Below, piece after piece: positions 23,621-55,187 of a stretch of DNA of 64,000 bases. Each line of letters opens with the position of its first letter. The first letter of the stretch is position 1. The DNA is from an uncultured Chloroflexia bacterium. GTDB taxonomy: Bacteria; Chloroflexota; Limnocylindria; Limnocylindrales; CSP1-4. The notes beneath the pieces were generated by a model. The model was not told the origin of the DNA. It worked only from the letters and a program-made list of their open reading frames with translations, and made no database searches. Position numbers and translations under genes: made by a program. The stretch spans positions 1,383,188 through 1,447,187 of the forward strand of contig OY969885.1 of assembly GCA_963704325.1 (NCBI GenBank), read 5' to 3'.

Positions 23621-24518
23621 ATGCCGCTGATCCGTGCCAATGGCATCGACGTTCACTACGAGGTCGACGGGGCCGGGCCACCGCTGCTGATGCTGCACGG
23701 GGCGACGTCATCGGCCCAGGAGGACTGGTCGGCCCAGCTGCCCGCCTTCCGCAAGGCATTCCGCGTCCACCTCATCGACGCGCGCGGCCACGCCCGTACG
23801 AAGTGGGACGTGCGCGATGGATTTCGACCGCGACATGCTCGTCGAGGACCTGCTCGCCTTCGTCGATGCGCTCGGGCTGGCCACTTTCCACCTGGTCGGC
23901 TTCAGCATGGGCGCGATGACGGCGCTCGCCTTCGCCACGCGCCATCCCGAACGGCTGCGCACGGCGATCATCTGCGGCATCGACATCGTGCGCGAGCCGC
24001 GCTCTAGCGTGGCGCGACGGCTGATGGATCCCGAGCGCATCCTGCGCGACGAGCCCGAATGGGCGGCCCAGCTGGAGCGGCGCCACGGGCCGGTGCAGGG
24101 CGAGGGAGCCTGGCGCCATCTGTTGCCGGCGATCGCCGCGGACGTGGCCACGGCGCCGCTGCTGACCCACCAGGATCTGCGCCGCATCCGCCTGCCGGTG
24201 CTGCTCGTGTACGGCGACAGGGACGTGTTCGTCCCGGCCGATCACGCCGTGGCCATCTATCGCCAATTGCCTGACGCGCGGCTGCTCATCGCGCCAAACT
24301 CGCCGCACACGGTGATGGTCAGCCAGCCGGCGTTGTTCAACCAGGCCGCGGCCAGCTTCTATCGTTCCACGGAGGCAGTCGCTCGGGCACGCGCCGCGAG
24401 CGGGGCCGAGAACGCGCCAACTTCCGTTGCGGCGACCGATGGCGCCGTGCTCTACGAACCGTCCGCGATAGCCGTGGCCGATGGCGATGACGAGCAGGAA
24501 CCCTTCAGCAAGTGGTAG
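23621..24518 (+). pseudogene. alpha/beta-fold hydrolase, interrupted by a frameshift near 23812-23826
   Basis: N-terminus (LLMLHGATSS...HLIDARGHARTKWDVRDG) in one frame. The rest (FDRDMLVEDLLAFVDALGLATFHLVGFSMGAM... with GFSMG nucleophile elbow) continues in the +1 frame. Confidence 0.7.
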
Positions 24519-24528
24519 GAGACGACCA

Positions 24529-24855
24529 GTGAGTGCAACCCTTCTCGCGATCTTCCGGCGCCCCGACGGCGGCGATGAGGCGCTGACGACCTTTCGGCGT
24601 CGCTATCACGACGAGCACCTGCCGCTCATCGCCAAGGTGCCCGGCCTGCGTGGCACCGTCACCGAGAATGTCGAGCAGCACTACGCGGGTGACGATGTCG
24701 TGATGCTCACGCGCATGGACTTCGATGATCGCGCCGCACTCGACGCGGGCATGAGCAGCGACGAGATGCGCGTCGCAGGTCGCAACCTGCGCGAGATCGC
24801 GCCCGGGCTGCTGACCCTGGTTGCGCTGGAGGAGTCGGGAGGCTCGACCGAATGA
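24529..24855 (+). CDS. EthD/Dabb-like stress-responsive alpha+beta barrel protein
   Basis: ~108 aa resembling the EthD family. GTG start after the hydrolase stop. The stop overlaps the next ATG. Confidence 0.55.
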   Translation: MSATLLAIFRRPDGGDEALTTFRRRYHDEHLPLIAKVPGLRGTVTENVEQHYAGDDVVMLTRMDFDDRAALDAGMSSDEMRVAGRNLREIAPGLLTLVALEESGGSTE

Positions 24856-26444
24856 CCGTCCATTACGACGTGGCCGACGGGGTTGCCACGGTGCGCCTGG
24901 ATCGCCCGGAGGTCTTCAACGCGCTCAACCGCGTCACGCTCGAGGCCGTGCGCGACTCCTTCCGCCAGGCCTCGGCCGATCATTCGGTGGGCGTCGTGGT
25001 GCTGACCGGGACCGGCGAGCGGGCCTTCTGCACCGGCGCCGATCTGGACGAGCAGCAGGCCTTCCTGGCCCGGCCGAATGACTACTGGGACTGGATGGGC
25101 CGCTTCATCGAAGCGATCGAGGCGATCAAGGACTGCGCCAAGCCGGTCGTCGCCCGACTGAACGGCATGGTCGTTGGCGGCGGCAACGAGCTCAACATCG
25201 CGTGCGACCTGGCCATTGCGGTAGATGACGCCGTGTTCCGCCACGTGGGTCCGTCACGCGGCTCGCTGCCTGCCGGCGGCGCAACCCAATGGATGCCGCT
25301 GCTGGTTGGCGATCGACGCGCGCGCGAGGTCCTGCTCCTGAACCGTCCCATCAGCGCCGCCCAGGCGCTCGATTGGGGCTGGGTCAACCGGATCGTGCCG
25401 CGCGCCGAGCTGGACGAGGCGGTCGCCGACTACTGCCGTGAGCTGCTCTCCAAGATGCCCGAGATCGTGCGTGCCACGCGCGTACAGCTCAACTACTGGA
25501 AGAGCCAGTCGTGGGCGATGACCGTCCAGATGGCGCGCGAGTGGCTGACCGTCCACGCCGGGTCGAGCGAGGTGGCCGAGGGGCTCGCCTCGTTCCATGA
25601 GAAGCGCCACGTGGACTACGACCGCGTTGCGGCGCGAGATCACGGAGGCCGGCTCGTGACCGACGAGAAGCCACGGATCAGGGTCGAGGCGCAGGCGGCT
25701 CCGGGCGTGGCGCTGCTGACGATCGATCGGCCCGAGGTCCTGAACGCACTCGACTACCGCACTCTGGGAGAGCTGGTCGAGGCCCTGGAGCGGCTTGACA
25801 CGGACGAGTCAGTGCGCTGTGTCGTGATCACCGGCGCAGGTGACCGCGCGTTCGCGGCCGGGGCGGACATCAGGGAGATGGCTGACGCGACGCCGGTGAC
25901 GCTTCTCGCGGCGAACAACTTTGCGCGCTGGGAGCGATTGAGGCGGATCCGCGTCCCCGTGATCGCCGCCGTGCGCGGCTTCGCCCTGGGTGGCGGCTGT
26001 GAGCTGGCCATGGCGTGCGACATCGTCGTCGCTGCGGACGATGCCACGTTCGGTCAGCCTGAGATCAAGATCGGGATCATCCCCGGTGCCGGTGGCACGC
26101 AACGGCTGACGCGGGCGTTGGGCAAGGCCAAGGCGATGGAGATGATCCTTACCGGCCGCAACCTGACGGCGCGCGAGGCGCACGAGCGCGGCCTCGTAGC
26201 GCAGGTCGTCGTGCGCGAGGAGACTCTGTCCGAGGCGCTCAAGCTGGCCGCCGAGGTGGCGTCCATGCCGCCGCTCGCCGTCCGTGCCGCCAAGGAAGCC
26301 GTCAACCGCGCCCACGAGCTGTCGCTCGAGGCCGGGCTGGAGTTCGAGCGGCGCAACTTCTTCATGCTCTTCGCCAGTGAGGACCAGAAGGAGGGCATGC
26401 GCGCGTTCATCGAGAAGCGCAAGCCAACCTGGAAAGGCCGCTGA
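24852..26444 (+). CDS. tandem double enoyl-CoA hydratase/isomerase (two crotonase domains in one 530-aa polypeptide)
   Basis: Residues 1-250 and 270-530 each carry complete crotonase-fold motifs (e.g. FCTGADL...GGGNEL and FAAGADI...GGGCELAMACD). Confidence 0.8.
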   Translation: MTVHYDVADGVATVRLDRPEVFNALNRVTLEAVRDSFRQASADHSVGVVVLTGTGERAFCTGADLDEQQAFLARPNDYWDWMGRFIEAIEAIKDCAKPVVARLNGMVVGGGNELNIACDLAIAVDDAVFRHVGPSRGSLPAGGATQWMPLLVGDRRAREVLLLNRPISAAQALDWGWVNRIVPRAELDEAVADYCRELLSKMPEIVRATRVQLNYWKSQSWAMTVQMAREWLTVHAGSSEVAEGLASFHEKRHVDYDRVAARDHGGRLVTDEKPRIRVEAQAAPGVALLTIDRPEVLNALDYRTLGELVEALERLDTDESVRCVVITGAGDRAFAAGADIREMADATPVTLLAANNFARWERLRRIRVPVIAAVRGFALGGGCELAMACDIVVAADDATFGQPEIKIGIIPGAGGTQRLTRALGKAKAMEMILTGRNLTAREAHERGLVAQVVVREETLSEALKLAAEVASMPPLAVRAAKEAVNRAHELSLEAGLEFERRNFFMLFASEDQKEGMRAFIEKRKPTWKGR

Positions 26445-26608
26445 CCCTTCAGCTGCCCACCACGACCCGGCGGTGCGACTGAAATGAGCCTGTAACCCCA
26501 CCCGAGTGAACCGTGGGCGGGGGTTCCTGCGAACAGCAATGTGACCGCGCAAATGCGCGGGGTCCGCGTACTCGCGGGCAACTCGATTGCAAACGCAGGA
26601 GTCTTTGA

Positions 26609-27901
26609 ATGCACGTATCAAGAATTGGAGCCGGGGCCCTGGCTGGCCTCCTCCTCGTCGGAGCCTGCACGAGCGGTGCCGGGAACTCACCCAGCGCCCC
26701 CGCAGCATCCAGCACGACTGCCCCCGCGGCAACCCCCAGCGCGTCGATGGACCACTCGATGGATCCCGGCACCTCGGCATCACCGGATGGCTCGATGGGC
26801 ACCGGCGTTGACATCACGAGTGACGCAGCAACGCTGCGCACGGACCTCAACTATCTGCTCGGCGAGCACCTGATCCTGGCCGCCAAGGCGACCGGCGCTG
26901 CGCTCGGTGGTCGGACGGACCAGTTCAACGCCTACGGCACTCTGCTCAACACCAACGGCACCGACCTTGGTGGAGCCATCGGCAGCATCTACGGCACCGA
27001 GGCCCAGGACGAGTGGAACCGCATCTGGAGCGCTCACAACGGCTTCTTCGTCGATTACACGACGGGCGTCGCCACGGCGGACCAGGCCCTGCAGGACCAG
27101 GCCGTTGAAGACCTGACCACGATCTACGTTCCCGAGTTCAGCGCATTCCTTTCGGGCGCGACGGACATCCCCGAGGACGCTGTCGCTGGCCTGGTCACCG
27201 ACCACGTCCTGCAGACCAAGGCCGTCGTTGACGCCCAGGCTTCAGGCGACTTCGACGCCGCATACGCGGCGATCCGCGAGGCCTACGCGCACATGTCCAT
27301 GATCGGTGACGCTCTTGCGCCGGCGATCGCGGAGAAGAACGCCATCGAAGGCGATGCCACCAATCCCGGCGTCGGCTTCCGGACCGCGTTCAACAACCTG
27401 CTCCAGGAGCACCTGTTCCTGGCCAGCTTCGCCACTGACGCCGCACTCGGCGGCCGCAGTGACGAGTTCGCAGCCGCAGGCGACGCGCTCAACACCAACG
27501 GCACGGACATCGGCGGGGCCATCGGCGGCCTCTTCGGCGCCGAAGCCCAGGACGAGTTCAACCGGATCTGGAGCGCCCACAACGGCTTCTTCGTCGACTA
27601 CACGACCGGTGTAGGCGCAGGCGACCAGGCCATGATGGACCAGGCTGTCGAAGACCTGACGACGGTTTACGTGCCCGAGTTCAGCGCCTTCCTCGCCGGG
27701 GCCACCGGGCTTCCCGAGGATGCGGTCACCGCACTGGTGACCGATCACGTCCTGACCACCAAGGCAATCGTCGACGCGCAGGGCGCGGGAGATGCGGCCG
27801 CTGCGGCCGAACTCGACCGTGAGGCAGCGATGCACATGCGCATGATCGGCGACCCGCTGGCCGAGGCAATCGTCAACGCGATGCCGGACAGCTTCCGCTA
27901 A
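26609..27901 (+). CDS. lipoprotein with internal tandem duplication of a ~170-aa helical domain, function unknown
   Basis: Lipobox LLVGAC|T and a PT-rich linker. Then two near-identical modules (LNYLLGEHLILAAKATGAALGGRTD...NGFFVDYTTGV...VPEFSAFL and FNNLLQEHLFLASFATDAALGGRSD...NGFFVDYTTGV...VPEFSAFL). Confidence 0.7.
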   Translation: MHVSRIGAGALAGLLLVGACTSGAGNSPSAPAASSTTAPAATPSASMDHSMDPGTSASPDGSMGTGVDITSDAATLRTDLNYLLGEHLILAAKATGAALGGRTDQFNAYGTLLNTNGTDLGGAIGSIYGTEAQDEWNRIWSAHNGFFVDYTTGVATADQALQDQAVEDLTTIYVPEFSAFLSGATDIPEDAVAGLVTDHVLQTKAVVDAQASGDFDAAYAAIREAYAHMSMIGDALAPAIAEKNAIEGDATNPGVGFRTAFNNLLQEHLFLASFATDAALGGRSDEFAAAGDALNTNGTDIGGAIGGLFGAEAQDEFNRIWSAHNGFFVDYTTGVGAGDQAMMDQAVEDLTTVYVPEFSAFLAGATGLPEDAVTALVTDHVLTTKAIVDAQGAGDAAAAAELDREAAMHMRMIGDPLAEAIVNAMPDSFR

Positions 27902-27981
27902 ACCCGCTAACTTCCTCTCCCTCCCGGCGGCGGACCGATCTCTCGGCCGCCGCCGGGTATTTTCATTTCGAGGTTTCGACC

Positions 27982-28371
27982 ATGAACAAGTTCCTCAAGC
28001 AAGCCGCACTGGGCGGCGTCATTGCGCTCGCATTGGCCGCCTGTGGCGGATCCACGAGCATCACATCGTCGCCGTCGAGCGCACCGGCGGAAGCCATTGA
28101 AGTGACTCTTTCGGACTTCAAGATCACGCCCTCATCGCTCACCTCCGGGAGCGCAGTCTCGATCGCGGTCACGAGCGACGGGCCGACCCCGCACAACCTC
28201 ACCATTCGCGACGCGGCGGATGCGGTCGTCGCGGCAACCGCTGACCTCAGCACAGGTGGGACCGAGACGATCGAGGCCGACCTCGACGCCGGCGAATACA
28301 CGATCTTCTGTTCCCTGGCCGGGCACGAGAGCCTGGGCATGCGCGGCACTCTCACCGTGGCGGCGCAATAG
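27982..28371 (+). CDS. cupredoxin (plastocyanin/azurin-family blue copper) lipoprotein
   Basis: Lipobox LAAC|G. Type-1 Cu ligands His (PHNL), Cys (IFCS), His (AGHE), Met (GM). Confidence 0.75.
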   Translation: MNKFLKQAALGGVIALALAACGGSTSITSSPSSAPAEAIEVTLSDFKITPSSLTSGSAVSIAVTSDGPTPHNLTIRDAADAVVAATADLSTGGTETIEADLDAGEYTIFCSLAGHESLGMRGTLTVAAQ

Positions 28372-28410
28372 GCCGCTGCCGATCATCGTCCCAGGTGCCA
28401 TCATCGGCAG

Positions 28411-29190
28411 GTGCCTGATTCGATCATCCGCGTAACAGCGGACGGTGTCCTGACCCTCACCCTCAACCGCCCGGATGCGCTGAACGCGTTCACGGTCGAG
28501 ATGAAGGAAGGGCTGCTGGCGGCGGTCAAGGATGCGGCGCGCGACCGTGACGTGCGCGTTGTCGTGCTGACCGGCGCCGGACGTGCCTTCTCCGCCGGGC
28601 AGGACCTCAAGGAGCGCCAGGGTCCTGACGCGAACGACCTCGGTACCGAGCTGCGCACCCGGTACAACCCGATCATCCTCGCCATGCGCCGCCTGGAGAA
28701 GCCGATCATCGGCGCGATCAACGGTGTCGCCGCGGGCGCGGGCATGTCGCTTGCGCTCGCCTGCGACATCGTCATCGCCTCTGACAGGGCGACGTTCATG
28801 CAGGCCTTCACGCGCGTCGGCCTGGTTCCGGACACGGGCTCGACGTGGTTCCTGTCGCGACTGGCCGGCTACGCCCGGGCTGCCGAGATGATGTTCAGTG
28901 CGGAGCCTGTCGACGCCGCCACGGCCGAGCGAATCGGCCTCGTCAACAGGGTCGTGCCTGCAGACGAGCTGGCCGCCGTGGCCAATTCGATGGCTGTCAA
29001 ACTTGCCAGTTCGGCGCCTCTCGCGCTCGCTCTCACAAAGCGCGCCTTGAACCGCGCCCTGGATTCGTCCCTCGAGGAAGCGCTCGAGTTCGAGGCGCAG
29101 CTCCAGTCGGTGGCCGGACGATCGAGCGATCACCGTGAGGGAACCGCCGCGTTCGTGGAGAAGCGGCCGGCCAAGTTCAGCGGCGAATGA
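28411..29190 (+). CDS. enoyl-CoA hydratase
   Basis: Crotonase motifs FSAGQDL and GAINGVAAGAGMSLALACD. GTG start. Confidence 0.85.
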   Translation: MPDSIIRVTADGVLTLTLNRPDALNAFTVEMKEGLLAAVKDAARDRDVRVVVLTGAGRAFSAGQDLKERQGPDANDLGTELRTRYNPIILAMRRLEKPIIGAINGVAAGAGMSLALACDIVIASDRATFMQAFTRVGLVPDTGSTWFLSRLAGYARAAEMMFSAEPVDAATAERIGLVNRVVPADELAAVANSMAVKLASSAPLALALTKRALNRALDSSLEEALEFEAQLQSVAGRSSDHREGTAAFVEKRPAKFSGE

Positions 29191-45570: not shown

Positions 45571-46497
45571 TCAGCCCGCGCGCAGGACCAGGATGTGCTG
45601 GTGGACGATGTTCGGAACGAAGCCGCGCGGGTAGCCGTAGGGCCGCAGGCGCGTTCCCGCCTGGTACCAGATGAGATCGCCCTTGGTCACGAAGCCCACT
45701 CGCTCCGCGCGTGCGCACAAGTCAGCGCCGGTGAAGCGGTAGCGGCCGTCCTGGTACGCGTCGCGCACGATGATCGTTGCGTAGCGACCCTCGCGCAGCA
45801 CTCGCCGCAGCTCGGCCAGAACCGCCTCCATGCGCGTCAGGTACTCCTCGTAACTGGCGCTATTGGCGAGATCGGCGGGATCGTCGGACACCATCGCGTA
45901 GTCCGTCCGGCGGTTGGCGAAGCGAGTGGCCAGGGGTCCACCGGACATCGTGATGCGCAACTGCGGGTTGTAGGGCGGATCTGTCGCCACGAAGTCGATC
46001 GACCCCGACTCAAGCCCGGCCAGCAGGCCAACCGCGTCGCCCACGACCATCCGGCTGCCTGACGGATCGAAATGCCGTGCGCCGCCCGGATCGGCCGAGC
46101 CCAGATCGGCCAGGGTGTGCGCTGGCCCATCGCCCTCCACGGACTCTGCCTGGGCTACCGCGCTGTAGACGTCCGCCCAGCGCTGCTCCAGCTCGAAGCC
46201 GAGCGCGCGCCGTGGCGAGCGGCAGATTGCAGCGCCGAGCAGAGTGCCACCCACTCCTGCGAACGGATCGAGCACCAGCTCACCGGAGCGGGTGAAGAAT
46301 TCGATCAGGCGGGCCATGAGGCGAGGCGGCTTATTGGCGCCGTGGACCTTGCGTGTCGCGTGGCCTAGCTCGGATGGATACGCCGTCGTCCAGAGCGACT
46401 TGGTGAAGTAGAGCCACTCGTCGCCGGGCAGCTCGTTCAGGACGTTGCCCGGATGCACCGCTCGCTTTGCGGATGACCCATCCGAACCGTCCTTCAC
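45571..46497 (-). CDS. DNA methyltransferase (N6-adenine or N4-cytosine class), no cognate nuclease visible
   Basis: AdoMet motif KPPRLMARLIEFFTRSGELVLDPFAGVGGTL and catalytic VATDPPYN. Neighbours are a peptidase and a LuxR regulator. Confidence 0.8.
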   Translation of the reverse strand: MKDGSDGSSAKRAVHPGNVLNELPGDEWLYFTKSLWTTAYPSELGHATRKVHGANKPPRLMARLIEFFTRSGELVLDPFAGVGGTLLGAAICRSPRRALGFELEQRWADVYSAVAQAESVEGDGPAHTLADLGSADPGGARHFDPSGSRMVVGDAVGLLAGLESGSIDFVATDPPYNPQLRITMSGGPLATRFANRRTDYAMVSDDPADLANSASYEEYLTRMEAVLAELRRVLREGRYATIIVRDAYQDGRYRFTGADLCARAERVGFVTKGDLIWYQAGTRLRPYGYPRGFVPNIVHQHILVLRAG

Positions 46498-46535
46498 CCC
46501 TCAAGTATCAACCAGACCACCGCTATCCTTCGCCG

Positions 46536-49500
46536 ATGGCGTTCATCGGTCGTGAACGCGAATTGGCTGTCCTTGGGTCGGCTTTTCAGCGTGCCCTCGA
46601 CAACGGTCCCACGCGGGTGGCAATCCACGGGCCACTGGGCATCGGGATCACCAGCCTTCTCGACGAGCTCGAGAGCAGGCTCGAGGGCGCGCCGGGTGTC
46701 GCCGTTTGTCGCGTGCGCTGCTATGCGTCGCTGAGCGCGGCGCCGTATGGCGCACTTGCCACCGCTCTCGGCGCGGCCCTGGCGGCGGCGCCCGACGATC
46801 GGCTCGCGGCGGTGGTGCACGGAGCTGGTCACGACACGCTCGCCCTGGTGCCTGCCATGGGGGAGCGAATGGCGCGCCTGGGCATCAGCGCCGATCCGCC
46901 CGCCCTTCAGGCACCCGACCAGCTTGGTGCTCGTGTGCGAGAGGCGCTGTTGGGCGTCATGGAGAGACTGGCCGCCGGACGCCAGCTGTGCCTGATCGTC
47001 GAGGACCTGGAGCACAGCGACCCGGCCACGCGCGGGCTGATCCAGGCCCTGCTGCGCACCAGCCGCCGCCTGTCGCTGACTCTGATCGTGGCCTACCACG
47101 CAGACGAGATGGCGCGCGATCATCCGGCGCGCGCTCTGTTGCGCGAAATGACAGAGAACGCCGAGGTGCAACAGGTCGCCCTGCCGCCACTGACGCGCGA
47201 CGAGCTGCTCGAGCTCGTTGAGCGACTCCACGGCGAGCGTCCCACGCTCGGCTTCATGGCCGCCGTGCTGGAGGGATCGCGCGGCAATCCCCTGCTGGCG
47301 ACTCAGCTGGTAGAGGCGGCACGGCGCCTGGACGGCCTTCGCCTTTCCGATCCACTGGAGGAGATCGTCCAGGCGCGCGTGCAGCAGCTAGACCGCGGCA
47401 CTGCCCTGGCGCTGCGCCTGCTCTCAGTGGCCAGGCGGCCGATCGAGGGCGAGGCGCTCGAGGGCCTGCGCCTGGAGCGCGGTCACCTGCCGCGCGCGGT
47501 GAAGGCGCAGCTGATCGAAAGCGGCCTGGTCGTTGAACGAGGCGGCTCGCTGAGCGTCGTCCACACGCTGTGCGCCGAGGCGATCGAGGCGTCGACCCTG
47601 CCCGGGCAGCGCCGGGCGCTCCACGCCACGCTGGCCGAGCGCCAGTCGGGAGACAGCGCCGAGCCAGCCGAGGCGGCTTGGCACTGGGCGCGCTCGGGCC
47701 GGCCGGCTGAAGCACGCGCCGCGCACCGCGCCGCCGCGCAGCGGGCCGATCGGCTCGACCCGGGCGCCAGCGCCCTGATCCACTACAGCGCTCTGCTCGA
47801 GCTGGGCGACGCGCCCGGCGCGGCGGCCGCGGATAAGGATCCTTCGGCAGATGTGGCTCTCCTCGCCGCGGCGGCGTGCGCAGCCGACGCCAGTGGCGCC
47901 TTCAGGCGCGCCGCGTCGCTCGTCGAGCAGGCCGTCGAGCGGCTCGCAGCGGGTCGCGTGGAGAAGCTGCTCGGCTCGGCCGGCGCCAGGAGCAGCGAGC
48001 CGGTTCGCGAACACGCTTCCCGGCTGCTCGAGCAGCTTGGCCGGCACCGGCGTTCGAGCGGCGACCTGGACGGGGCGCGCGCGGCCTTCGAACAGGCGCT
48101 GGAAGTCGCGCCGGCGAATATGCCCGTTGCACGCGCTCGGGCGCTGGCCGCGCTGGCCCAGGACCTGATGCTCGAGGGCCGCTTCGAGGAGAGTGCCGCG
48201 ACCGCAGAAGCGGCGCGTGCGGCCGCGGCCGAGTCCGGCGACGAGGGCCTGGCAGAGCTGGTTCATGCCACGGACACGCTCGCCGTAGACCTGGGCTTCA
48301 TGGGCCACATCGACCGCGCATTGGGCCTGCTCGACGAGGCCACGGCCGCTGCGCGACGGCTGGGCCGACTGGACGAGCTGATGCGCTGCTACGCCAATCG
48401 GACGACTCTGCTCGACCTCGACCTGCGCCGCGAGGAGGCACTCGCCGTGGTCAAGGACGGCATGGCCGAAGCGAGCCGTAACGGCCTGGGCATGACCTAT
48501 GGCGCGTTCCTGCGTGGCAATGCGGCCGACATCCTCTTCCAGCTCGGTCGCTGGGAGGAAGCCGAGGCAGAGTGCCGTGCCGCGCTCGAGTTTCCGCCGT
48601 CGGGCGTGGCCTGGTTCAGCCCGATCCTCTACCTCGGCATCGTCCTGGTTGAGTCGCGCGGCGATGACGACGCATCGCGCCTGGTCGGGCGGACGCTGCT
48701 TCAGCTCGAGAGCGTGCCCGCCGGGCAGTGGTCGGCGCTCGTCCTGCGCACGGCGGTCAGCCTGGCCCTGTGGCGCGGCGACCTGGGTGACGCGCTGAGC
48801 GCGGCGCAGCAGGGCTGGCCTCGCGTCCGGGAGACGGAGGATCCGTCACAGATCATCATGGCCGCCGCGACAGTGCTCGAGGCGTGCGCCGCCGTTGCCG
48901 AGCAGGGCCGCCAGCGGCGCGACTTCTCGTCTGTCGCGGAGGCCGGCGCGCTGGCCGCCGAAGTCCTCGCCCACGCCACCGAACAGGCTCAGCACCACAA
49001 GCTGCCCGCGTCGCTCGGTGCGCGGCGCGAGTCGGATCTGTACCTGGCCACCGCCCGAGCCCATGCGGAGCGCGTACGCGGCCGGGCCAACCCGCAGGTC
49101 TGGTCACGTTTGGCAGAGGCGTGGGCTCAGCTGCCCGTGCCGTACCAGGCCGCCAAGGCGTACTGGGCCGCCGCGCGCGCCGCGCTGCCCACCAGGGCGC
49201 GCCGCGGTGAGGCTCGACGGGCGCTGCTGGCCGCTTGGAAGATCAGTGGCGCGCTGCCTGCCGATCCGCTGCGCCGCGCGCTGCGCGAGCTCGCCGACCG
49301 TGGCCGCATAACGCTGCCCGAGGACAGGTTCGTGGTGATCCCGATCGAGCGCGAGCGTGAGCTCGTGGCCGTTGGCCCTGGACCGGCGTCCACCGTGCGC
49401 AATGGCGACCAGGACCTGGCCAGCCTCGTTGCCGGCCCGGGCACCCCGCCCGCAGTCGGTCGTTTCGGGCTCAGCCCGCGCGAGAACTCGGTCCTGCTAG

Positions 49501-49712
49501 TGCTCGCCCAGGGGCGCACCAACCGTGAGATTGCCGAGCGCCTGTTCATCAGCGAGAGGACGGTCGCGGTTCACGTGCGGCGCATCCTGGCCAAGCTGGG
49601 CGTCAGCGGCAGGGTTGAGGCGGCGGGCATGGCAATTCGGCTCGGGCTGGTGCCTGACGACCCGCGCGTAGTCGGCTCCCGCCAGCGGTCCGGGAGCGCT
49701 CAGCTGCACTGA
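46536..49712 (+). CDS. LuxR-family (LAL/MalT-like) large transcriptional regulator with degenerate P-loop
   Basis: N-terminal NTPase-like region (GPLGIGITSLL, no Walker lysine), long helical-repeat middle, C-terminal LuxR HTH (LSPRENSVLLVLAQGRTNREIAERLFISERTVAVHVRRILAKLGV). Confidence 0.8.
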   Translation: MAFIGRERELAVLGSAFQRALDNGPTRVAIHGPLGIGITSLLDELESRLEGAPGVAVCRVRCYASLSAAPYGALATALGAALAAAPDDRLAAVVHGAGHDTLALVPAMGERMARLGISADPPALQAPDQLGARVREALLGVMERLAAGRQLCLIVEDLEHSDPATRGLIQALLRTSRRLSLTLIVAYHADEMARDHPARALLREMTENAEVQQVALPPLTRDELLELVERLHGERPTLGFMAAVLEGSRGNPLLATQLVEAARRLDGLRLSDPLEEIVQARVQQLDRGTALALRLLSVARRPIEGEALEGLRLERGHLPRAVKAQLIESGLVVERGGSLSVVHTLCAEAIEASTLPGQRRALHATLAERQSGDSAEPAEAAWHWARSGRPAEARAAHRAAAQRADRLDPGASALIHYSALLELGDAPGAAAADKDPSADVALLAAAACAADASGAFRRAASLVEQAVERLAAGRVEKLLGSAGARSSEPVREHASRLLEQLGRHRRSSGDLDGARAAFEQALEVAPANMPVARARALAALAQDLMLEGRFEESAATAEAARAAAAESGDEGLAELVHATDTLAVDLGFMGHIDRALGLLDEATAAARRLGRLDELMRCYANRTTLLDLDLRREEALAVVKDGMAEASRNGLGMTYGAFLRGNAADILFQLGRWEEAEAECRAALEFPPSGVAWFSPILYLGIVLVESRGDDDASRLVGRTLLQLESVPAGQWSALVLRTAVSLALWRGDLGDALSAAQQGWPRVRETEDPSQIIMAAATVLEACAAVAEQGRQRRDFSSVAEAGALAAEVLAHATEQAQHHKLPASLGARRESDLYLATARAHAERVRGRANPQVWSRLAEAWAQLPVPYQAAKAYWAAARAALPTRARRGEARRALLAAWKISGALPADPLRRALRELADRGRITLPEDRFVVIPIERERELVAVGPGPASTVRNGDQDLASLVAGPGTPPAVGRFGLSPRENSVLLVLAQGRTNREIAERLFISERTVAVHVRRILAKLGVSGRVEAAGMAIRLGLVPDDPRVVGSRQRSGSAQLH

Positions 49713-49759
49713 CGCGCCGGCCGGCGCGACACTCTTTCGCACTTTCGGCCAGAATTGGG

Positions 49760-50248
49760 TTGATGCGTCTCATCCCCGCTCCCCAACGGCGGCTTGTGCT
49801 GCCCGCCGCCCTGTTGACGTGCGTCCTGGTGGTTGCCGCCTGCGGATCCGCCGGTGGCGCCGGGTGGAGCTACGCCCCACTCGGCCCGACTGCGCCGCCC
49901 AGCCCGTCAGGCGAGCCGAGCACAGGGCCCAGCTCTTCGCCAGGCCTGGTGCTGGAGATAGCCACCAACCAGGACCAGCCGCTCACCTTCGTGCCCGCCG
50001 AGCTGGAGGCGCCGCCGGCGACCGTGGTCCAGGTCACCTACAACAACAACAGCAACCTTCCGCACAACATCAACTTCTTCGCCGGGCCTGATGCGACCGC
50101 TGAGTCGCTCGGCGCGACAGAGGTGGTGACAGGGCCCAATGCGCCCGAATCGGTCACCTTCACCACGCCTGACGAGCCCGGCGCGTACTACTTCTGGTGC
50201 GACGTCCATGTCGACACCATGGCCGGCATCCTGAATGTCGGCCCGTAG
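49760..50248 (+). CDS. cupredoxin (blue copper) lipoprotein
   Basis: Lipobox VVAAC|G. Type-1 Cu ligands H (LPHNI), C (FWCD), H (DVH), M (DTM). Confidence 0.7.
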   Translation: MMRLIPAPQRRLVLPAALLTCVLVVAACGSAGGAGWSYAPLGPTAPPSPSGEPSTGPSSSPGLVLEIATNQDQPLTFVPAELEAPPATVVQVTYNNNSNLPHNINFFAGPDATAESLGATEVVTGPNAPESVTFTTPDEPGAYYFWCDVHVDTMAGILNVGP

Positions 50249-50285
50249 CAAGACCAGCCGGCCGATCGTCTGAGCAGTCCTGACC

Positions 50286-51836
50286 ATGTCTAATCCCTCA
50301 CCGGCACTGGCCGCCTTCCTGTCGTTCATCTTCCCCGGCGCGGGGCAGCTGTATGCGGGCGAGCCGCGCAGGGCGATCGTGTGGGCGCTGCCCATGCTCA
50401 TCTTCATCCTGGCCGTGCTGTGGCTCATCTTTGGTGGGCAGGGCGCGATCACGGGCCTTGTCACCGCACCCAAGCTGCTCGGGCTGCTCGTGCTCAACGT
50501 GGCCTTCTTCCTGTACCACGTGGCCGCGATGCTCGACGCCTACCAGCTCGCAGGGCGCGACCGCTTCTCGGGCTACCGCCGATCGGGCAGCGTCGCTCCG
50601 ATCGCCCTTGCCGCGCTTGTCGCCGTGACGATGATCATGCACGGCCTGCCGGCCGTTGCGTGGGGTGTGCCGCTGTACAACTTCGTCGCGTCACAGCAGG
50701 GGCGGCCGGACGTCATCCCCAGCTTCAACCCAGGGCCCACGCCTACGCCATCGGCAGTGCCCAGCGGCGCCACTCCAACGCCGGCGGCCTCCCCGACCGG
50801 CACGCCGGGCGGCTCGGGCAGCCCAACGCCGAGTGGCTCCGGTGGTCCCGTGCCTTCTCCACGCGCATGTGACCCGATCGATCTCGGCAGCTGGGGAATG
50901 GCCGCCGACGGCCGCGTCAACCTGCTCATGGTCGGTTCCGACTCGCGCTCTGACGACGGTGTCAGCGCGGCCAGCATCCGGACCGACTCCATGCTCCTGC
51001 TGAGCATCGACATCGCGTCATGCAAGGCCGCCATGTTCAGCTTCCCGCGCAACATGCAGGAGCCCAAGCCGGGCTCCGACTCGCGCTACCCGAGCTGGTT
51101 CCGCATTCCGCTCGAGAACGGTGGGACATACCCGGGCTTCCTCTTCGGGCTGTGGCGCGATGCTGCCTCGAGCCCGAGCGTCTACCCCGGATCCGATGGC
51201 ATCGGCGCCGAGTGCCAGGCTCAGTTCGACTGCGAGCGCGGATGGCGCGCGCTGACCGTCGCCATCCAGAACATGGCCGGCGTGCAGGTCGACGCCGTGG
51301 TTTCGGTCAACCTGAAGGGCTTCGTTGACGTGGTCGACAACCTGCCCGGCGGCGGCCTGTGGATCGACATTCCGTCGCCGCTCTACGACGAAGAGTACTT
51401 CGACTCGAACCAGCAGCCGATGCTGATCGACTTTGACCGCGGCTGCCAGTTCCTGAACGGCGAAGAGTCGCTCGCCTACGCGCGATCACGCCATCAGGAC
51501 TCGGATTACCAGCGCGCGCGGCGCCAGCAATACGTGATCCAGCAGGTCCGCAAGCAACTCGATCCTCTGGCGCTGCTACCCAACGTGCCGGCGCTGCTGG
51601 GCGTCGCCCAGGCCAACCTGTTCATGACCATTGATGACACGGACATCCCGTTCCTGGCCCAGGTGGCGTCGCGCATCGATGCCGACCGCATGTACCGCTA
51701 CGACTTCGCGCCGGCACGCCTGACCCGGCTCGAGAGCATGCAGGGCATGGCCGACAAGGTGAACAACATCTTCGATGAGCCGGAGCCGACGCCCACCACG
51801 CGGCCCGATCAGGAGCCCTGCCCGCCGCGCACCTGA
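50286..51836 (+). CDS. LCP-family (LytR-CpsA-Psr) cell-envelope phosphotransferase with N-terminal multi-TM domain
   Basis: N-terminal TM domain, PT/GS-rich linker, then an LCP catalytic domain. Confidence 0.85.
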   Translation: MSNPSPALAAFLSFIFPGAGQLYAGEPRRAIVWALPMLIFILAVLWLIFGGQGAITGLVTAPKLLGLLVLNVAFFLYHVAAMLDAYQLAGRDRFSGYRRSGSVAPIALAALVAVTMIMHGLPAVAWGVPLYNFVASQQGRPDVIPSFNPGPTPTPSAVPSGATPTPAASPTGTPGGSGSPTPSGSGGPVPSPRACDPIDLGSWGMAADGRVNLLMVGSDSRSDDGVSAASIRTDSMLLLSIDIASCKAAMFSFPRNMQEPKPGSDSRYPSWFRIPLENGGTYPGFLFGLWRDAASSPSVYPGSDGIGAECQAQFDCERGWRALTVAIQNMAGVQVDAVVSVNLKGFVDVVDNLPGGGLWIDIPSPLYDEEYFDSNQQPMLIDFDRGCQFLNGEESLAYARSRHQDSDYQRARRQQYVIQQVRKQLDPLALLPNVPALLGVAQANLFMTIDDTDIPFLAQVASRIDADRMYRYDFAPARLTRLESMQGMADKVNNIFDEPEPTPTTRPDQEPCPPRT

Positions 51837-52545: not shown

Positions 52546-53159
52546 TCAGCGCCGGTTCCTGGCGAAGATGAACAGCAGGACCGCGCCGATGACGACTGCC
52601 GCAAGCAAGAGGGCAAGCATCAGGTCCGTGCCGGTGCCCGACGGCGACCCATCGATCGGCTCTGCAGTGGCGACCGGCGTGGGGCTCGCGGGAGGGCTTG
52701 AAGTGGGTGCAACGGAAGCGCTGGGCACCGTGGTCGCGCTGGGCGCAGCTGTCGCACTGGGCGTGGCCGTGGCCGCCACGGTTGGGCTGGGCGTGGCGGC
52801 TGCGGCAACGGTGAACGTGAACGTGTCGCGCTCAACACCGTTGTCTTCCGGCGTGACGGTCTGCCAGCGCACCTCGTACGTGCCTGGCTCCAGGGCGGGC
52901 AGTTCGACGACCATGACCGTGGCGTCGTCATCGCTGACGGCACCCTCGGCGACCAGCGCTCCACCAGCGTCCATGACCCTGATGAAGCTGCGCTCCGCGT
53001 CGAACTCTGCGCTGAAGCTCGCGGTCAGCGTGTAGGGCGTACTGATTGTTTCGCCGGCGGCCGGATCGGACTCCTCAAGGTGAGCGTGGCCCAGCACGGC
53101 GAGAGGAGTGAGAGCAGTGAACATGAACGCCATCAGGAGGGCGCTCGTTGCGCGAATCA

Positions 53160-53163
<4 letters not shown>
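52546..53163 (-). CDS. CopC-domain copper-binding protein with PT/AS-rich linker and C-terminal membrane anchor
   Basis: Signal peptide, then [13 protein letters not shown] (CopC N-terminal His motif). Thr/Pro/Ala/Ser-rich linker. C-terminal TM helix plus RNRR. Confidence 0.75.

Positions 53164-55187
<2,024 letters not shown>

What the first reader, a model, noticed from the sequence alone, without database searches (positions are those of the whole stretch)
26445..28371. Internally duplicated lipoprotein plus cupredoxin lipoprotein inserted in a beta-oxidation cluster, preceded by GC-rich inverted repeats
- A secreted lipoprotein made of two ~170-aa modules, 60-70% identical, is followed 80 nt later by a type-1 copper cupredoxin lipoprotein. 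I recognise no family for the duplicated module.
- A second cupredoxin lipoprotein (49760) and a CopC protein (52546) lie about 22 kb away.
- Upstream, at about 26490-26570, are C-tract/G-tract inverted repeats (AACCCCACCC...GGGCGGGGGTT) that resemble CsoR-type copper operators in style, and a palindrome CCGCGCA-AA-TGCGCGG.
- This may be an extracytoplasmic copper-trafficking or redox module.
Basis: partly seen in the sequence, partly recalled or inferred. Interest (0 to 1): 0.6.

Follow-up and report, generated by a model that had tools for sequence, protein, structure and literature searches.

The report
Twin helical lipoprotein partnered with cupredoxin
A membrane-tethered protein from a widespread but undescribed family (two six-helix bundles, each with a conserved central layer of histidines) sits next to, and in other bacteria is fused to, a small blue copper protein; a stress-type sigma factor usually switches the pair on, which points to an uncharacterised copper-handling module of the cell envelope.

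Summary
ORF1 (26609-27901) is a lipoprotein with two 181-aa modules that are 69% identical. Eighty nt downstream, ORF2 (27982-28371) is a type-1 copper cupredoxin lipoprotein.

The link to the cupredoxin is strong:
- It lies directly downstream in 70 of 85 family ORFs from species-representative genomes.
- It lies directly upstream in Methylomirabilota, beside CopC/CopD genes.
- It is fused to the modules in many proteins.

The beta-oxidation setting is incidental.

The upstream repeats are not CsoR operators. They overlap an ECF-type promoter (TGATCC-N16-CG[T/A]A, found in 46 of 63 loci; window variant TGAACC-N17-CGAA) and 5'-UTR hairpins. SigK-like sigma/RskA anti-sigma genes often sit next to the family gene and carry the same motif. 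A structure-conserved hairpin separates the two genes.

Function is inferred, not shown: probably envelope copper binding coupled to a dedicated redox partner.

The parts
26494..26525 (+). Imperfect GC-rich inverted repeat (AACCCCACCC / GGGCGGGGGTT), 50 nt after the stop of the upstream enoyl-CoA hydratase gene. Its loop carries GTGAACC. Probably the terminator-like hairpin of the upstream gene, overlapping the promoter of ORF1.
   Evidence: Sequence. Folded alone it is not exceptional (z -0.6). In the syntenic loci L085 and L003 the stems differ but still pair, and the loop GTGAACC is invariant.
26507..26533 (+). Candidate ECF-sigma-type promoter variant: TGAACC (-35) - 17 nt - CGAA (-10), 102 nt before the start codon.
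   Evidence: The family-wide motif T[GC]A[TA]NC-N15-17-CG[TA]A lies within 170 nt upstream in 46 of 63 loci, against 0.93 expected. The CGAA variant occurs in about 13 loci, including L003 with the identical TGAACC...GCGAA. The block is conserved in window, L085 and L003. Function in this genome is inferred, and no sigma or RskA gene lies in the window.
26545..26560 (+). Perfect palindrome CCGCGCA-AA-TGCGCGG. Predicted first hairpin of the 5' UTR.
   Evidence: Invariant in window, L085 and L002/L003 only. Analogous hairpins follow the -10 element in many other loci, with different sequences (window segment z -2.9).
26564..26577 (+). Second small 5'-UTR hairpin, CCGCG-TACT-CGCGG.
   Evidence: RNAalifold keeps it in all three syntenic loci with one compensatory pair.
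26597..26601 (+). Shine-Dalgarno AGGAG, 7 nt before the ATG of ORF1.
   Evidence: Sequence. The same GGAG lies before the start in nearly all loci.
26609..26668 (+). ORF1 signal peptide with lipobox (LLVGA-C20).
   Evidence: Translation. Most family members carry a lipobox or a Sec signal peptide.
26669..26812 (+). Disordered Ser/Thr/Pro/Ala tether carrying a Met/His-rich motif (SMDHSMDPGTSASPDGSMG) just before module 1.
   Evidence: pLDDT below 50 for aa 1-58. At least 2 Met occur in the 30 aa before module 1 in 97 of 99 close homologues.
26813..27355 (+). Module 1 (aa 69-249): six-helix bundle. Conserved mid-helix layer H87, N116, H143, Y173, H199, H228/M229, plus E86, W140 and Y150.
   Evidence: HMM domain limits. 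AlphaFold pLDDT about 98. Conservation.
27356..27898 (+). Module 2 (aa 250-430): second six-helix bundle. Conserved layer H268, N297, H324, Y354, H380, H409/M410, plus E267, W321 and Y331.
   Evidence: (pLDDT 91, helices 4-31, 35-60, 62-88, 91-117, 121-143, 147-175).
27923..27969 (+). Intercistronic GC-rich hairpin (CCCGGCGGCGG...CCGCCGCCGGG) followed by TATTTTCATTTC. Acts as a partial intrinsic terminator or 3' stabiliser between ORF1 and ORF2.
   Evidence: Terminator scan hit. MFE -37.7 kcal/mol, z -4.9. A hairpin at this position occurs in 59 of 66 loci. Over 60 loci the median z is -4.2, with 46 different stem sequences. Only 24 nt remain before the ORF2 start, so ORF2 must be read through (inference).
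27982..28371 (+). ORF2: type-1 copper cupredoxin lipoprotein (lipobox Cys21; ligands H71, C110, H115, M120).
   Evidence: Pfam Cupredoxin_1 and Copper-bind. In 70 orthologues H71 is 100%, C110 100%, H115 97%, M120 44% and the lipobox Cys 99% conserved.

Best explanation
ORF1 and ORF2 form a self-contained extracytoplasmic two-protein module.

Shown:
- ORF1 is tethered to the outer face of the membrane by a lipid anchor and a disordered, Met/His-rich linker.
- It consists of two rigidly packed six-helix bundles of an undescribed family.

Inferred:
- Each bundle is built from three ~56-residue helical hairpins.
- Each hairpin places one near-invariant His at a core heptad position in the middle of helix 1, 3 or 5.
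- With Asn, Tyr and His/Met from the middle of helices 2, 4 and 6, these residues form one central polar layer.
- I read this layer as a buried mononuclear metal site, most likely copper, one per bundle.
- ORF2, a small type-1 (blue) copper lipoprotein, is its dedicated one-electron partner.
- The most likely job is copper capture or buffering at the cell surface. The cupredoxin would change or sense the redox state of the bound metal, for example Cu(I) to Cu(II), or carry electrons to or from it.

Expression:
- In most relatives transcription starts at an ECF-sigma (SigK-like, RskA-controlled) promoter. The window carries a variant of that promoter.
- A conserved hairpin between the genes probably lets only part of the transcripts reach ORF2, which would give more helical protein than cupredoxin.

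Overall: the pairing, the fusion, the family architecture and the promoter motif are shown by comparison. The metal site, the metal's identity, the direction of electron flow and the stoichiometry are inferred.
For: Pairing with the cupredoxin:
- A cupredoxin gene lies directly downstream on the same strand in 70 of 85 family ORFs from GTDB species representatives. Five ORFs had no room to tell.
- It is the only neighbour conserved across contexts.
- In Methylomirabilota it lies directly upstream instead.

Fusion:
- Modules plus a C-terminal cupredoxin occur in P0122, P0125, P0129 (ORF2-like), P0134, P0137, P0174, P0200, P0227 and P0250. P0139 has an N-terminal cupredoxin.
- About 50 of the top 120 relatives of P0137 are fused.

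Copper context:
- In three Methylomirabilota assemblies the pair heads a cluster with CopC, CopD-cytochrome c, two more CopC genes and a TonB-dependent receptor.
- The tether before module 1 is Met-rich in 97 of 99 close homologues. The window has SMDHSMD.
- Bacillaceae members have His-rich mature N-termini.

Fold and candidate site:
- AlphaFold gives pLDDT 91 and pTM 0.85 for one module, and pLDDT about 98 with pTM 0.84 for the whole protein.
- Across 255 modules H19 is 96%, H75 91% and H131 90% conserved, spaced exactly 56 residues apart. N48 is 94%, W72 98%, Y82 96%, Y105 81%, H160 73% and M161 78%.
- H19, N48, H75, Y105, H131 and H160 lie at mid-helix in the model's secondary structure.
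- Profile-profile alignment of the three thirds puts the His residues in register (P 6e-4, 9e-5, 1.6e-4).

Regulation:
- The motif T[GC]A[TA]NC-N15-17-CG[TA]A lies upstream in 46 of 63 loci, against 0.93 expected.
- The same motif precedes both the sigma gene and the family gene in Oceanobacillus, Radiobacillus, L020 and L087.
- Sigma and RskA genes are adjacent.

Intercistronic hairpin.
Against: - No experiment exists on any member, and no coordinates were available to me. Convergence of the His side chains is therefore inferred from sequence phase and helix positions, not measured.
- Many members (Bacillaceae, L001/L020, some Dormibacteria) have no cupredoxin nearby, so the helical protein can work without one.
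- Met/His enrichment of the tether is only modest across the whole family: 41 observed against 27 expected for two M/H within six residues.
- The window has no sigma or RskA gene, and its promoter differs from the consensus in both hexamers.
- Most neighbourhoods are unrelated housekeeping genes.
- A His3 site could equally bind Zn, Ni or Fe.
Confidence: 0.45

Rival explanations
1. A two-component (or, where fused, single-chain) copper oxidoreductase. The His-triad centre of each bundle would be a catalytic type-2-like copper, and the cupredoxin would feed or remove electrons, as type-1 and type-2 copper cooperate in nitrite reductase. The substrate could be O2-derived species, nitrite or a small envelope reductant.
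For: - T1 cupredoxins are electron carriers by design (established knowledge).
- Repeated independent fusions with two cupredoxin subtypes, C-x4-H-x4-M/L and C-x2-H-x2-M.
- Conserved Trp and Tyr lie on helices 3 and 4, which also carry H75 and Y105 (W72 98%, Y82 96%, Y105 81%).
- Bacillaceae loci lie near catalase.
- The family is part of an ECF stress regulon.
Against: - Bacillota members lack any cupredoxin.
- No substrate channel or second-shell catalytic residues could be examined.
- The hairpin implies that the cupredoxin is made in smaller amount than the supposed enzyme, which is compatible but not diagnostic.
- No respiratory or nitrogen-cycle genes are consistently adjacent.
Confidence: 0.2
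2. The helical protein is the extracytoplasmic sensor or modulator of the RskA-type anti-sigma factor, as CnrX senses Ni/Co for CnrY-CnrH. It would bind a metal or redox signal and pass it to RskA.
For: - It lies adjacent to sigma-RskA in Bacillota and Chloroflexota.
- One protein (P0249) joins family modules to an RskA_C-like C-terminus.
- The RskA signal is unknown (PMC7509140).
Against: - The gene has its own copy of the sigma-dependent promoter, which is the signature of a target gene rather than of a co-transcribed sensor.
- Most loci, including the window, have no sigma or RskA nearby.
- Only one fusion example exists, and it may be an assembly artefact.
Confidence: 0.12
3. A surface protein that binds another metal (Zn, Ni, Fe) or no metal at all, such as a structural, scaffold or ligand-binding envelope protein. 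The cupredoxin would be merely a co-regulated neighbour.
For: - His3 sites are not metal-specific.
- Anchoring by SLH, LPXTG/sortase and Cu_amine_oxidN1 domains is typical of wall-associated structural proteins.
- Ferritin_2 genes flank the gene in Litorilinea.
- No Cys is present in the mature protein.
Against: - Domain fusion with cupredoxins in many lineages and in both orders is hard to explain by co-regulation alone.
- The CopC/CopD neighbourhood.
- The Met-rich tether.
- A buried, near-invariant polar layer in a helical core is unlikely for a purely structural protein.
Confidence: 0.15
4. One reading: a copper-trafficking operon controlled by a CsoR/CopY-type repressor that binds the C-tract/G-tract repeats at 26494-26525 and the palindrome at 26545-26560.
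For: GC-rich inverted repeats exist upstream. The pattern CCCCNCCC-N6-16-GGGNGGGG occurs only once in the window, but the pattern was derived from that site, so the test is circular.
Against: - No CsoR-like ORF lies in the window (queries recalled from memory).
- The C/G tracts are replaced by other sequences in L085 and L003, while the loop GTGAACC and the block CCTGCGAA are kept. These are the -35 and -10 of the family's ECF-type promoter.
- The palindrome sits where other loci have unrelated 5'-UTR hairpins.
Confidence: 0.03

Closest known systems
EfeO (cupredoxin domain + helical M75/imelysin metal-binding domain) of the EfeUOB iron system
   Same: An extracytoplasmic cupredoxin combined with an internally duplicated all-helical metal-binding partner. 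ORF2's best NCBIfam match is the cupredoxin part of EfeO (E 5e-8; also P0129). The logic of redox change followed by binding is comparable.
   Different: - No sequence or fold match of the helical part to M75/imelysin.
- No HxxE motif.
- Domain order is mostly reversed.
- ORF2 has the canonical type-1 ligands.
- No EfeU or EfeB genes are present.
Small type-1 copper proteins (plastocyanin/azurin/auracyanin family) and the copper-tolerance cupredoxin CopI
   Same: ORF2 is a member by Pfam and by its ligand set. It is a lipoprotein, as are some membrane-tethered blue copper proteins. CopI is a Cu-stress-induced periplasmic plastocyanin-like protein (PMC7558416).
   Different: - The match to CopI is weak (E 9e-4).
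- ORF2 lacks CopI's internal His/Met-rich region.
- No described cupredoxin has this helical partner.
SigK-RskA (ECF18/ECF19-type) sigma/anti-sigma systems and their regulons
   Same: The sigma genes next to family members score best against SigK-type models, and the anti-sigmas carry zf-HC2 plus RskA_C. Autoregulated promoters share one motif with the family gene.
   Different: - The known mycobacterial regulon (mpt70/mpt83) is unrelated to this family.
- The sigma factors here score below the NCBIfam cut-offs for SigK.
- The ECF subgroup was not assigned.
- No such pair lies in the window.
Copper storage proteins (Csp1/Csp3) and other helical copper binders (CopM/DUF305, SmbP)
   Same: All-helical bundles, secreted in the case of Csp1, that bind copper inside or along the bundle.
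   Different: - Csps are four-helix bundles lined with Cys. The mature ORF1 has no Cys apart from the lipidated Cys20.
- No Pfam hit to DUF305 or SMBP.
- The topology here is six helices with a threefold internal repeat.
De novo single-chain antiparallel six-helix barrel (PDB 8qad) and designed three-His coiled coils
   Different: The similarity is purely geometric (Foldseek E 0.36, 14% identity). There is no evolutionary relation, and no natural solved counterpart was found.
Pfam DUF2150 (PF09920, archaeal, uncharacterised)
   Same: A few Bacillaceae members reach or approach its gathering score over about 65 residues covering helices 4-5 (P0324 32.6 bits against 28).
   Different: Only 4 of 50 diverse members match at E <= 0.01, and the window protein does not. 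DUF2150 is itself of unknown function, and a full-text search found one paper that mentions it once.

Membership tests
Cupredoxin / type-1 blue copper protein (ORF2) | Cupredoxin fold detected by family profiles | tested here: met
   Pfam Cupredoxin_1 40.3 bits (cut-off 27) and Copper-bind 25.7 bits (cut-off 21.2).
Cupredoxin / type-1 blue copper protein (ORF2) | Ligand set His ... Cys-xn-His-xn-Met | tested here: met
   H71, C110, H115 and M120 are present. In 70 orthologues conservation is 100%, 100%, 97% and 44%; only the axial position varies. The fused relative P0129 has Leu there.
Cupredoxin / type-1 blue copper protein (ORF2) | Actual copper binding and blue spectrum | not testable with these tools
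   Needs purified protein.
Bacterial lipoprotein (ORF1 and ORF2) | Signal peptide ending in a lipobox with an invariant Cys | tested here: met
   ORF1 has LVGA-C20 and ORF2 has LAA-C21. The Cys is conserved in 99% of ORF2 orthologues and in most ORF1 relatives.
CsoR-regulated copper operon | A CsoR-family repressor gene in the neighbourhood | tested here: not met
   tblastn of B. subtilis and M. tuberculosis CsoR (sequences recalled from memory) against the window gave nothing below E 0.25.
CsoR-regulated copper operon | Operator sequence conserved among orthologous promoters | tested here: not met
   The C-tract/G-tract arms are replaced in L085 and L003. They were absent from the other loci inspected.
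ECF-sigma (SigK/RskA-type) regulon member | Shared -35/-10 motif with fixed spacing upstream of both the target gene and the autoregulated sigma gene | tested here: met
   For the family: 46 of 63 loci against 0.93 expected. The same motif precedes the sigma gene and the family gene in L082, L084, L020 and L087.
ECF-sigma (SigK/RskA-type) regulon member | The same holds for the window copy itself | tested here: inconclusive
   TGAACC-N17-CGAA at 26507-26533 has one mismatch in the -35 and uses the CGAA -10 variant of a subclade. No sigma or RskA gene lies in the 64-kb window. No transcript data are available.
Copper storage protein (Csp) | Four-helix bundle with many Cys lining the core | tested here: not met
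   The model has six helices per module. There is no Cys after the lipobox, and Cys frequency in the modules is 0.000.
Imelysin / Peptidase_M75 (EfeO/EfeM helical domain) | Profile match and HxxE motif in paired four-helix bundles | tested here: not met
Copper amine oxidase (the name NCBI gives to Bacillaceae homologues) | Catalytic amine-oxidase domains | tested here: not met
   Only some members carry the non-catalytic Cu_amine_oxidN1 domain (P0184, P0193). Typical 445-aa members and the window protein have none. The name is a misnomer.
Pfam DUF2150 | Score above the gathering threshold | tested here: inconclusive
   4 of 50 members match at E <= 0.01, with a best of 32.6 bits against 28. 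The window protein has no hit.
Intrinsic terminator (27923-27969) | GC-rich stem-loop followed by a T-run | tested here: met
   Scan hit and z -4.9. Termination efficiency was not testable.
Known RNA family (riboswitch or leader) in the 5' UTR | Rfam covariance-model match | tested here: not met
   The permissive cmscan (E-value threshold up to 5) of 26300-28500 found only two chance-level hits.

The most novel reading that the evidence does not exclude
The module is a new class of extracytoplasmic metalloprotein. It would be a natural pseudo-threefold six-helix bundle with a buried His3(+His/Met) copper centre that, with its dedicated or fused type-1 cupredoxin, forms a previously unrecognised copper redox enzyme or copper-redox buffer. 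It would also be the hallmark output, and possibly the signal link, of a SigK/RskA-type ECF sigma system seen here in Bacillota and Chloroflexota. For SigK/RskA systems the inducing signal is still unknown.
Probability: 0.2. Interest if true: 0.85.

Novelty: new variant of a known kind. Interest (0 to 1): 0.65.

Why it matters
- The helical module defines a large secreted protein family: 1787 clusters at 50% identity. It occurs in Chloroflexota, Dormibacterota, Methylomirabilota, Actinomycetota and cultured Bacillaceae.
- It has no Pfam or NCBIfam model, no solved structure and no literature. In GenBank it is either 'hypothetical' or mislabelled 'copper amine oxidase'.
- Comparative evidence ties it to blue copper proteins by adjacency and fusion, to CopC/CopD, and to SigK/RskA-type ECF sigma factors. 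The activating signal of SigK/RskA is an open question.
- If the predicted His layer is a copper site, this would be a new natural metal-binding fold and a new element of envelope copper homeostasis.
- It would also give a concrete, testable hypothesis (copper or redox stress) for what this ECF group responds to, using cultured carriers such as Oceanobacillus iheyensis.

Tried and rejected
Searches for a known relative of ORF1 (all empty):
- PDB sequence searches with the protein, a module profile and a 50-sequence profile found nothing.
- The afdb50 fold library was unavailable.
- Pfam and NCBIfam found no family. The DUF6478 and DUF2150 hits are sub-threshold or sporadic.
- Literature searches found no description of the family. 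The supplement of the ECF classification paper, which might name the sigma group and its motif, is not held.

Searches in and around the window (all empty):
- Rfam found no hit in the leader or the intergenic region.
- The exact window protein (P0001) is not on record in the contig index.
- tblastn for CsoR found nothing.
- tblastn for SigK-like sigma and RskA in the window found nothing.

Ideas considered and dropped:
- The idea that the beta-oxidation neighbours indicate function. Only about 4 of 77 loci share them, and the neighbours elsewhere are unrelated (folate enzymes, MFS, histidine ammonia-lyase).
- The palindrome GTGACCGCGCA-NN-TGCGCGG as a family-wide operator. It occurs only in the syntenic loci.
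- The canonical CGTA at 26567-26570 as the window's -10. The spacing to a -35-like TGACC is 19-20 nt and varies among relatives, so I preferred the upstream TGAACC-N17-CGAA.
- A sigma-70 promoter. The scan found none.

Weak result:
- Met/His enrichment of the tether across all family representatives is only modest. It is strong only in the window's clade.
Full report
**1. The observation**

The region holds two same-strand ORFs. ORF1 (26609-27901, 430 aa) starts with a signal peptide that ends in a lipobox (LLVGA-C20). ORF2 (27982-28371, 129 aa) starts 80 nt after ORF1's stop and has a classical lipobox (LAA-C21).

- The two halves of ORF1 align without gaps at 69% identity over 173 residues, E 1e-76.
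- The DNA shows the same duplication with a 543-nt period.
- ORF2 passes the Pfam thresholds for Cupredoxin_1 and Copper-bind.
- ORF2 carries the type-1 ligand pattern H71 ... C110-x4-H115-x4-M120.
- The flanks are a double enoyl-CoA hydratase, another hydratase, 3-hydroxyacyl-CoA dehydrogenase and thiolase.
- A second cupredoxin lies at 49760-50248.
- A CopC-domain protein lies on the minus strand at 52546-53163.
- The upstream inverted repeats exist but are not stronger than shuffled sequence when folded alone.
- The strongest hairpin lies between the two genes at 27923-27957, followed by a T-run.

**2. ORF1 belongs to a large undescribed family**

Pfam, NCBIfam and the PDB sequence library give nothing for ORF1. 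This holds even with a profile of 50 members down to about 30% identity.

Homologues are nevertheless abundant:
- 889 hits in the 90% clusters. The named ones are 'hypothetical' proteins of Chloroflexota and Candidatus Limnocylindria MAGs.
- A module profile finds 1787 representatives at 50% identity, 340 of them below E 1e-30.

Almost all members have a lipobox or a Sec signal. Two modules is the usual architecture, but one, three and four also occur.

Additional domains are of two kinds:
- Cell-surface anchors: SLH, sortase or LPXTG, and Cu_amine_oxidN1.
- Cupredoxins.

Cultured Bacillaceae have members too (Oceanobacillus, Halobacillus, Salinicoccus, Cytobacillus and others). NCBI names these 'copper amine oxidase' or 'LPXTG anchor protein'. 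The former is a misnomer, because they lack any amine-oxidase domain.

**3. Fold and candidate site**

- AlphaFold models one module as six long helices (pLDDT 91, pTM 0.85).
- It models the whole protein as two rigidly associated six-helix units (pLDDT about 98 for aa 70-430, pTM 0.84).
- These follow a disordered N-terminal region (pLDDT below 50 for aa 1-58, rising by about aa 70).

Conservation across 255 modules from 150 representatives:

| Residue (module numbering) | Conservation |
|---|---|
| E18 | 88% |
| H19 | 96% |
| N48 | 94% |
| W72 | 98% |
| H75 | 91% |
| Y82 | 96% |
| Y105 | 81% |
| H131 | 90% |
| D140 | 83% |
| H160 | 73% |
| M161 | 78% |

- H19, H75 and H131 are spaced exactly 56 residues apart.
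- Profile-profile alignments of the three thirds put them in register (P 6e-4, 9e-5, 1.6e-4).
- So a module is probably three helical hairpins.
- Reading the heptads from the conserved hydrophobic positions, each of the three His residues occupies the same core position.
- In the model's secondary structure H19, N48, H75, Y105, H131 and H160 each lie near the middle of helices 1 to 6.

I therefore infer one central polar layer per bundle, best explained as a buried metal site. This is an inference. I had no access to coordinates.

**4. The link to the cupredoxin is real**

- In 79 loci from GTDB species representatives, a cupredoxin ORF lies directly downstream on the same strand for 70 of 85 family ORFs. 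Five ORFs had no room to tell.
- It is the only neighbour conserved across contexts. The next most frequent neighbours occur in 15 loci or fewer and are unrelated housekeeping genes. The beta-oxidation setting is shared by about four loci.
- The orthologous cupredoxins keep H71, C110 and H115 (97-100%) and the lipobox Cys. The axial Met is kept in only 44%; the fused relative P0129 has Leu there.
- At least ten of the 150 representatives are fusions of modules with a cupredoxin, of two ligand-spacing subtypes. They are mostly C-terminal and once N-terminal.
- About 50 of the top 120 relatives of one fusion are fused as well.
- In three Methylomirabilota assemblies the order is reversed (cupredoxin, then the family gene). 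There the pair is followed by CopC and a CopD-cytochrome c fusion, and faces two more CopC genes and a TonB-dependent receptor.
- The tether before module 1 is Met-rich in 97 of 99 close homologues (ESMAP-type repeats; the window has SMDHSMD).
- Bacillaceae members have His-rich mature N-termini.
- Across the whole family the Met/His enrichment is only modest.

**5. Regulation**

- No CsoR-like ORF lies in the window.
- The C/G tracts are not conserved even in the syntenic loci L085 and L003.

What is conserved there is GTGAACC (in the loop of the first repeat), the block CCTGCGAA, the palindrome, a second small hairpin and the Shine-Dalgarno site.

Across the family, alignment on a CGTA found 30-100 nt upstream (42 of 65 loci against 6.9 expected) revealed TGAT(T/C/G)C exactly 16 nt further upstream.
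- The strict motif occurs in 35 of 63 loci, against 0.47 expected.
- Allowing the -10 variant CGAA raises this to 46 of 63, against 0.93 expected.
- This is the shape of an ECF-sigma promoter (from established knowledge of such promoters).

Sigma and anti-sigma genes:
- An ECF sigma gene (best models SigK-type) and an RskA-type anti-sigma gene lie next to the family gene in Limnocylindria L001/L020, another Chloroflexota MAG (L087), Litorilinea, Oceanobacillus, Radiobacillus and Salinicoccus.
- In L082, L084, L020 and L087 the same motif precedes both the sigma gene and the family gene.

The window copy:
- It has TGAACC-N17-CGAA at 26507-26533. L003 has the same elements with a 16-nt spacer, and the CGAA -10 is shared with a whole subclade.
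- The palindrome at 26545-26560 and the next hairpin then fall at the start of the 5' UTR, where many other loci have hairpins of different sequence.
- No sigma or RskA gene is in the window, so regulation of this particular copy remains inferred.
- The signal sensed by RskA systems is unknown (PMC7509140).

**6. The intercistronic hairpin**

- A GC-rich stem-loop lies between the family gene and the cupredoxin gene in 59 of 66 loci.
- Over 60 loci the median z is -4.2 and the median uninterrupted stem is 14 bp, with 46 different stem sequences.
- So the structure, not the sequence, is conserved.
- In the window it is followed by TATTTTCATTTC, and only 24 nt (including GAGG) remain before ORF2.
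- ORF2 therefore has no room for its own promoter after the hairpin and must be expressed by read-through.
- The element most likely acts as a partial terminator or 3' stabiliser that makes ORF1 more abundant than ORF2 (inference).

**7. Interpretation**

The best-supported reading has three parts:
- An ECF-controlled, surface-tethered twin-bundle metalloprotein, probably a copper protein.
- A dedicated blue-copper redox partner.
- A role in envelope copper handling.

The rivals are a true two-component oxidoreductase, a sensor for RskA, or a protein that binds another metal or none.

No feature places the helical protein in any described family. Analogies to EfeO, to Csp and to CnrX concern logic, not homology. 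The finding is therefore a real, conserved and uncharacterised module. Its biochemical function is still a hypothesis.

Noticed in passing
window 24852-26444 (+): One 530-aa ORF carries two complete enoyl-CoA hydratase (ECH_1) domains. In the close relative L085 the same position holds two separate genes of 268 and 270 aa, so this is a gene fusion or a lost stop codon.
   Followed up: partly
window 23621-24007 and 23817-24518 (+): Two overlapping ORFs in different frames both look like parts of one alpha/beta-hydrolase. Relatives (L002, L085) have a single gene of 251-299 aa. This is probably a frameshift (pseudogene or assembly error).
   Followed up: no
window 46467-51836 (+): A 1081-aa AAA_16 + TPR + LuxR/GerE regulator lies directly upstream of the second cupredoxin lipoprotein (49760-50248), which is followed by a LytR_cpsA_psr protein. 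The second cupredoxin is only 29% identical to ORF2 and has no family member beside it.
   Followed up: partly
window 52546-55187 (-): The CopC-domain protein (205 aa, with a C-terminal hydrophobic stretch that looks like a membrane anchor) starts with an ATGA overlap on the stop of a 675-aa DUF255/thioredoxin-like protein. This suggests translational coupling of a copper-binding and a thiol-redox protein.
   Followed up: no
P0274-P0389 (Bacillaceae homologues); L082, L084, L091: GenBank names these proteins 'copper amine oxidase' although they contain no amine-oxidase domain. In three genera the gene sits beside an ECF sigma gene, an RskA gene and a sortase gene.
   Followed up: yes
P0249 (representative library): One protein joins family modules to an RskA_C-like C-terminal domain. 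This is a possible physical link between the family and the anti-sigma factor, or an assembly artefact.
   Followed up: no
L088 9264-10619, L089 6788-8143: In Methylomirabilota the CopD gene downstream of the pair is fused to a cytochrome c domain, and two more CopC genes and a TonB-dependent receptor face the cluster.
   Followed up: partly
L090 5299-9630: In Litorilinea the four-module cupredoxin fusion is flanked on both sides by Ferritin_2-domain genes. It follows sigma and RskA genes and precedes a sortase gene.
   Followed up: no
window 27902-27981: In the minimum-free-energy fold an outer helix pairs CUUCCU (27911-27916) with the ORF2 Shine-Dalgarno region (about 27970-27975). This may add translational control of the cupredoxin.
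   Followed up: no
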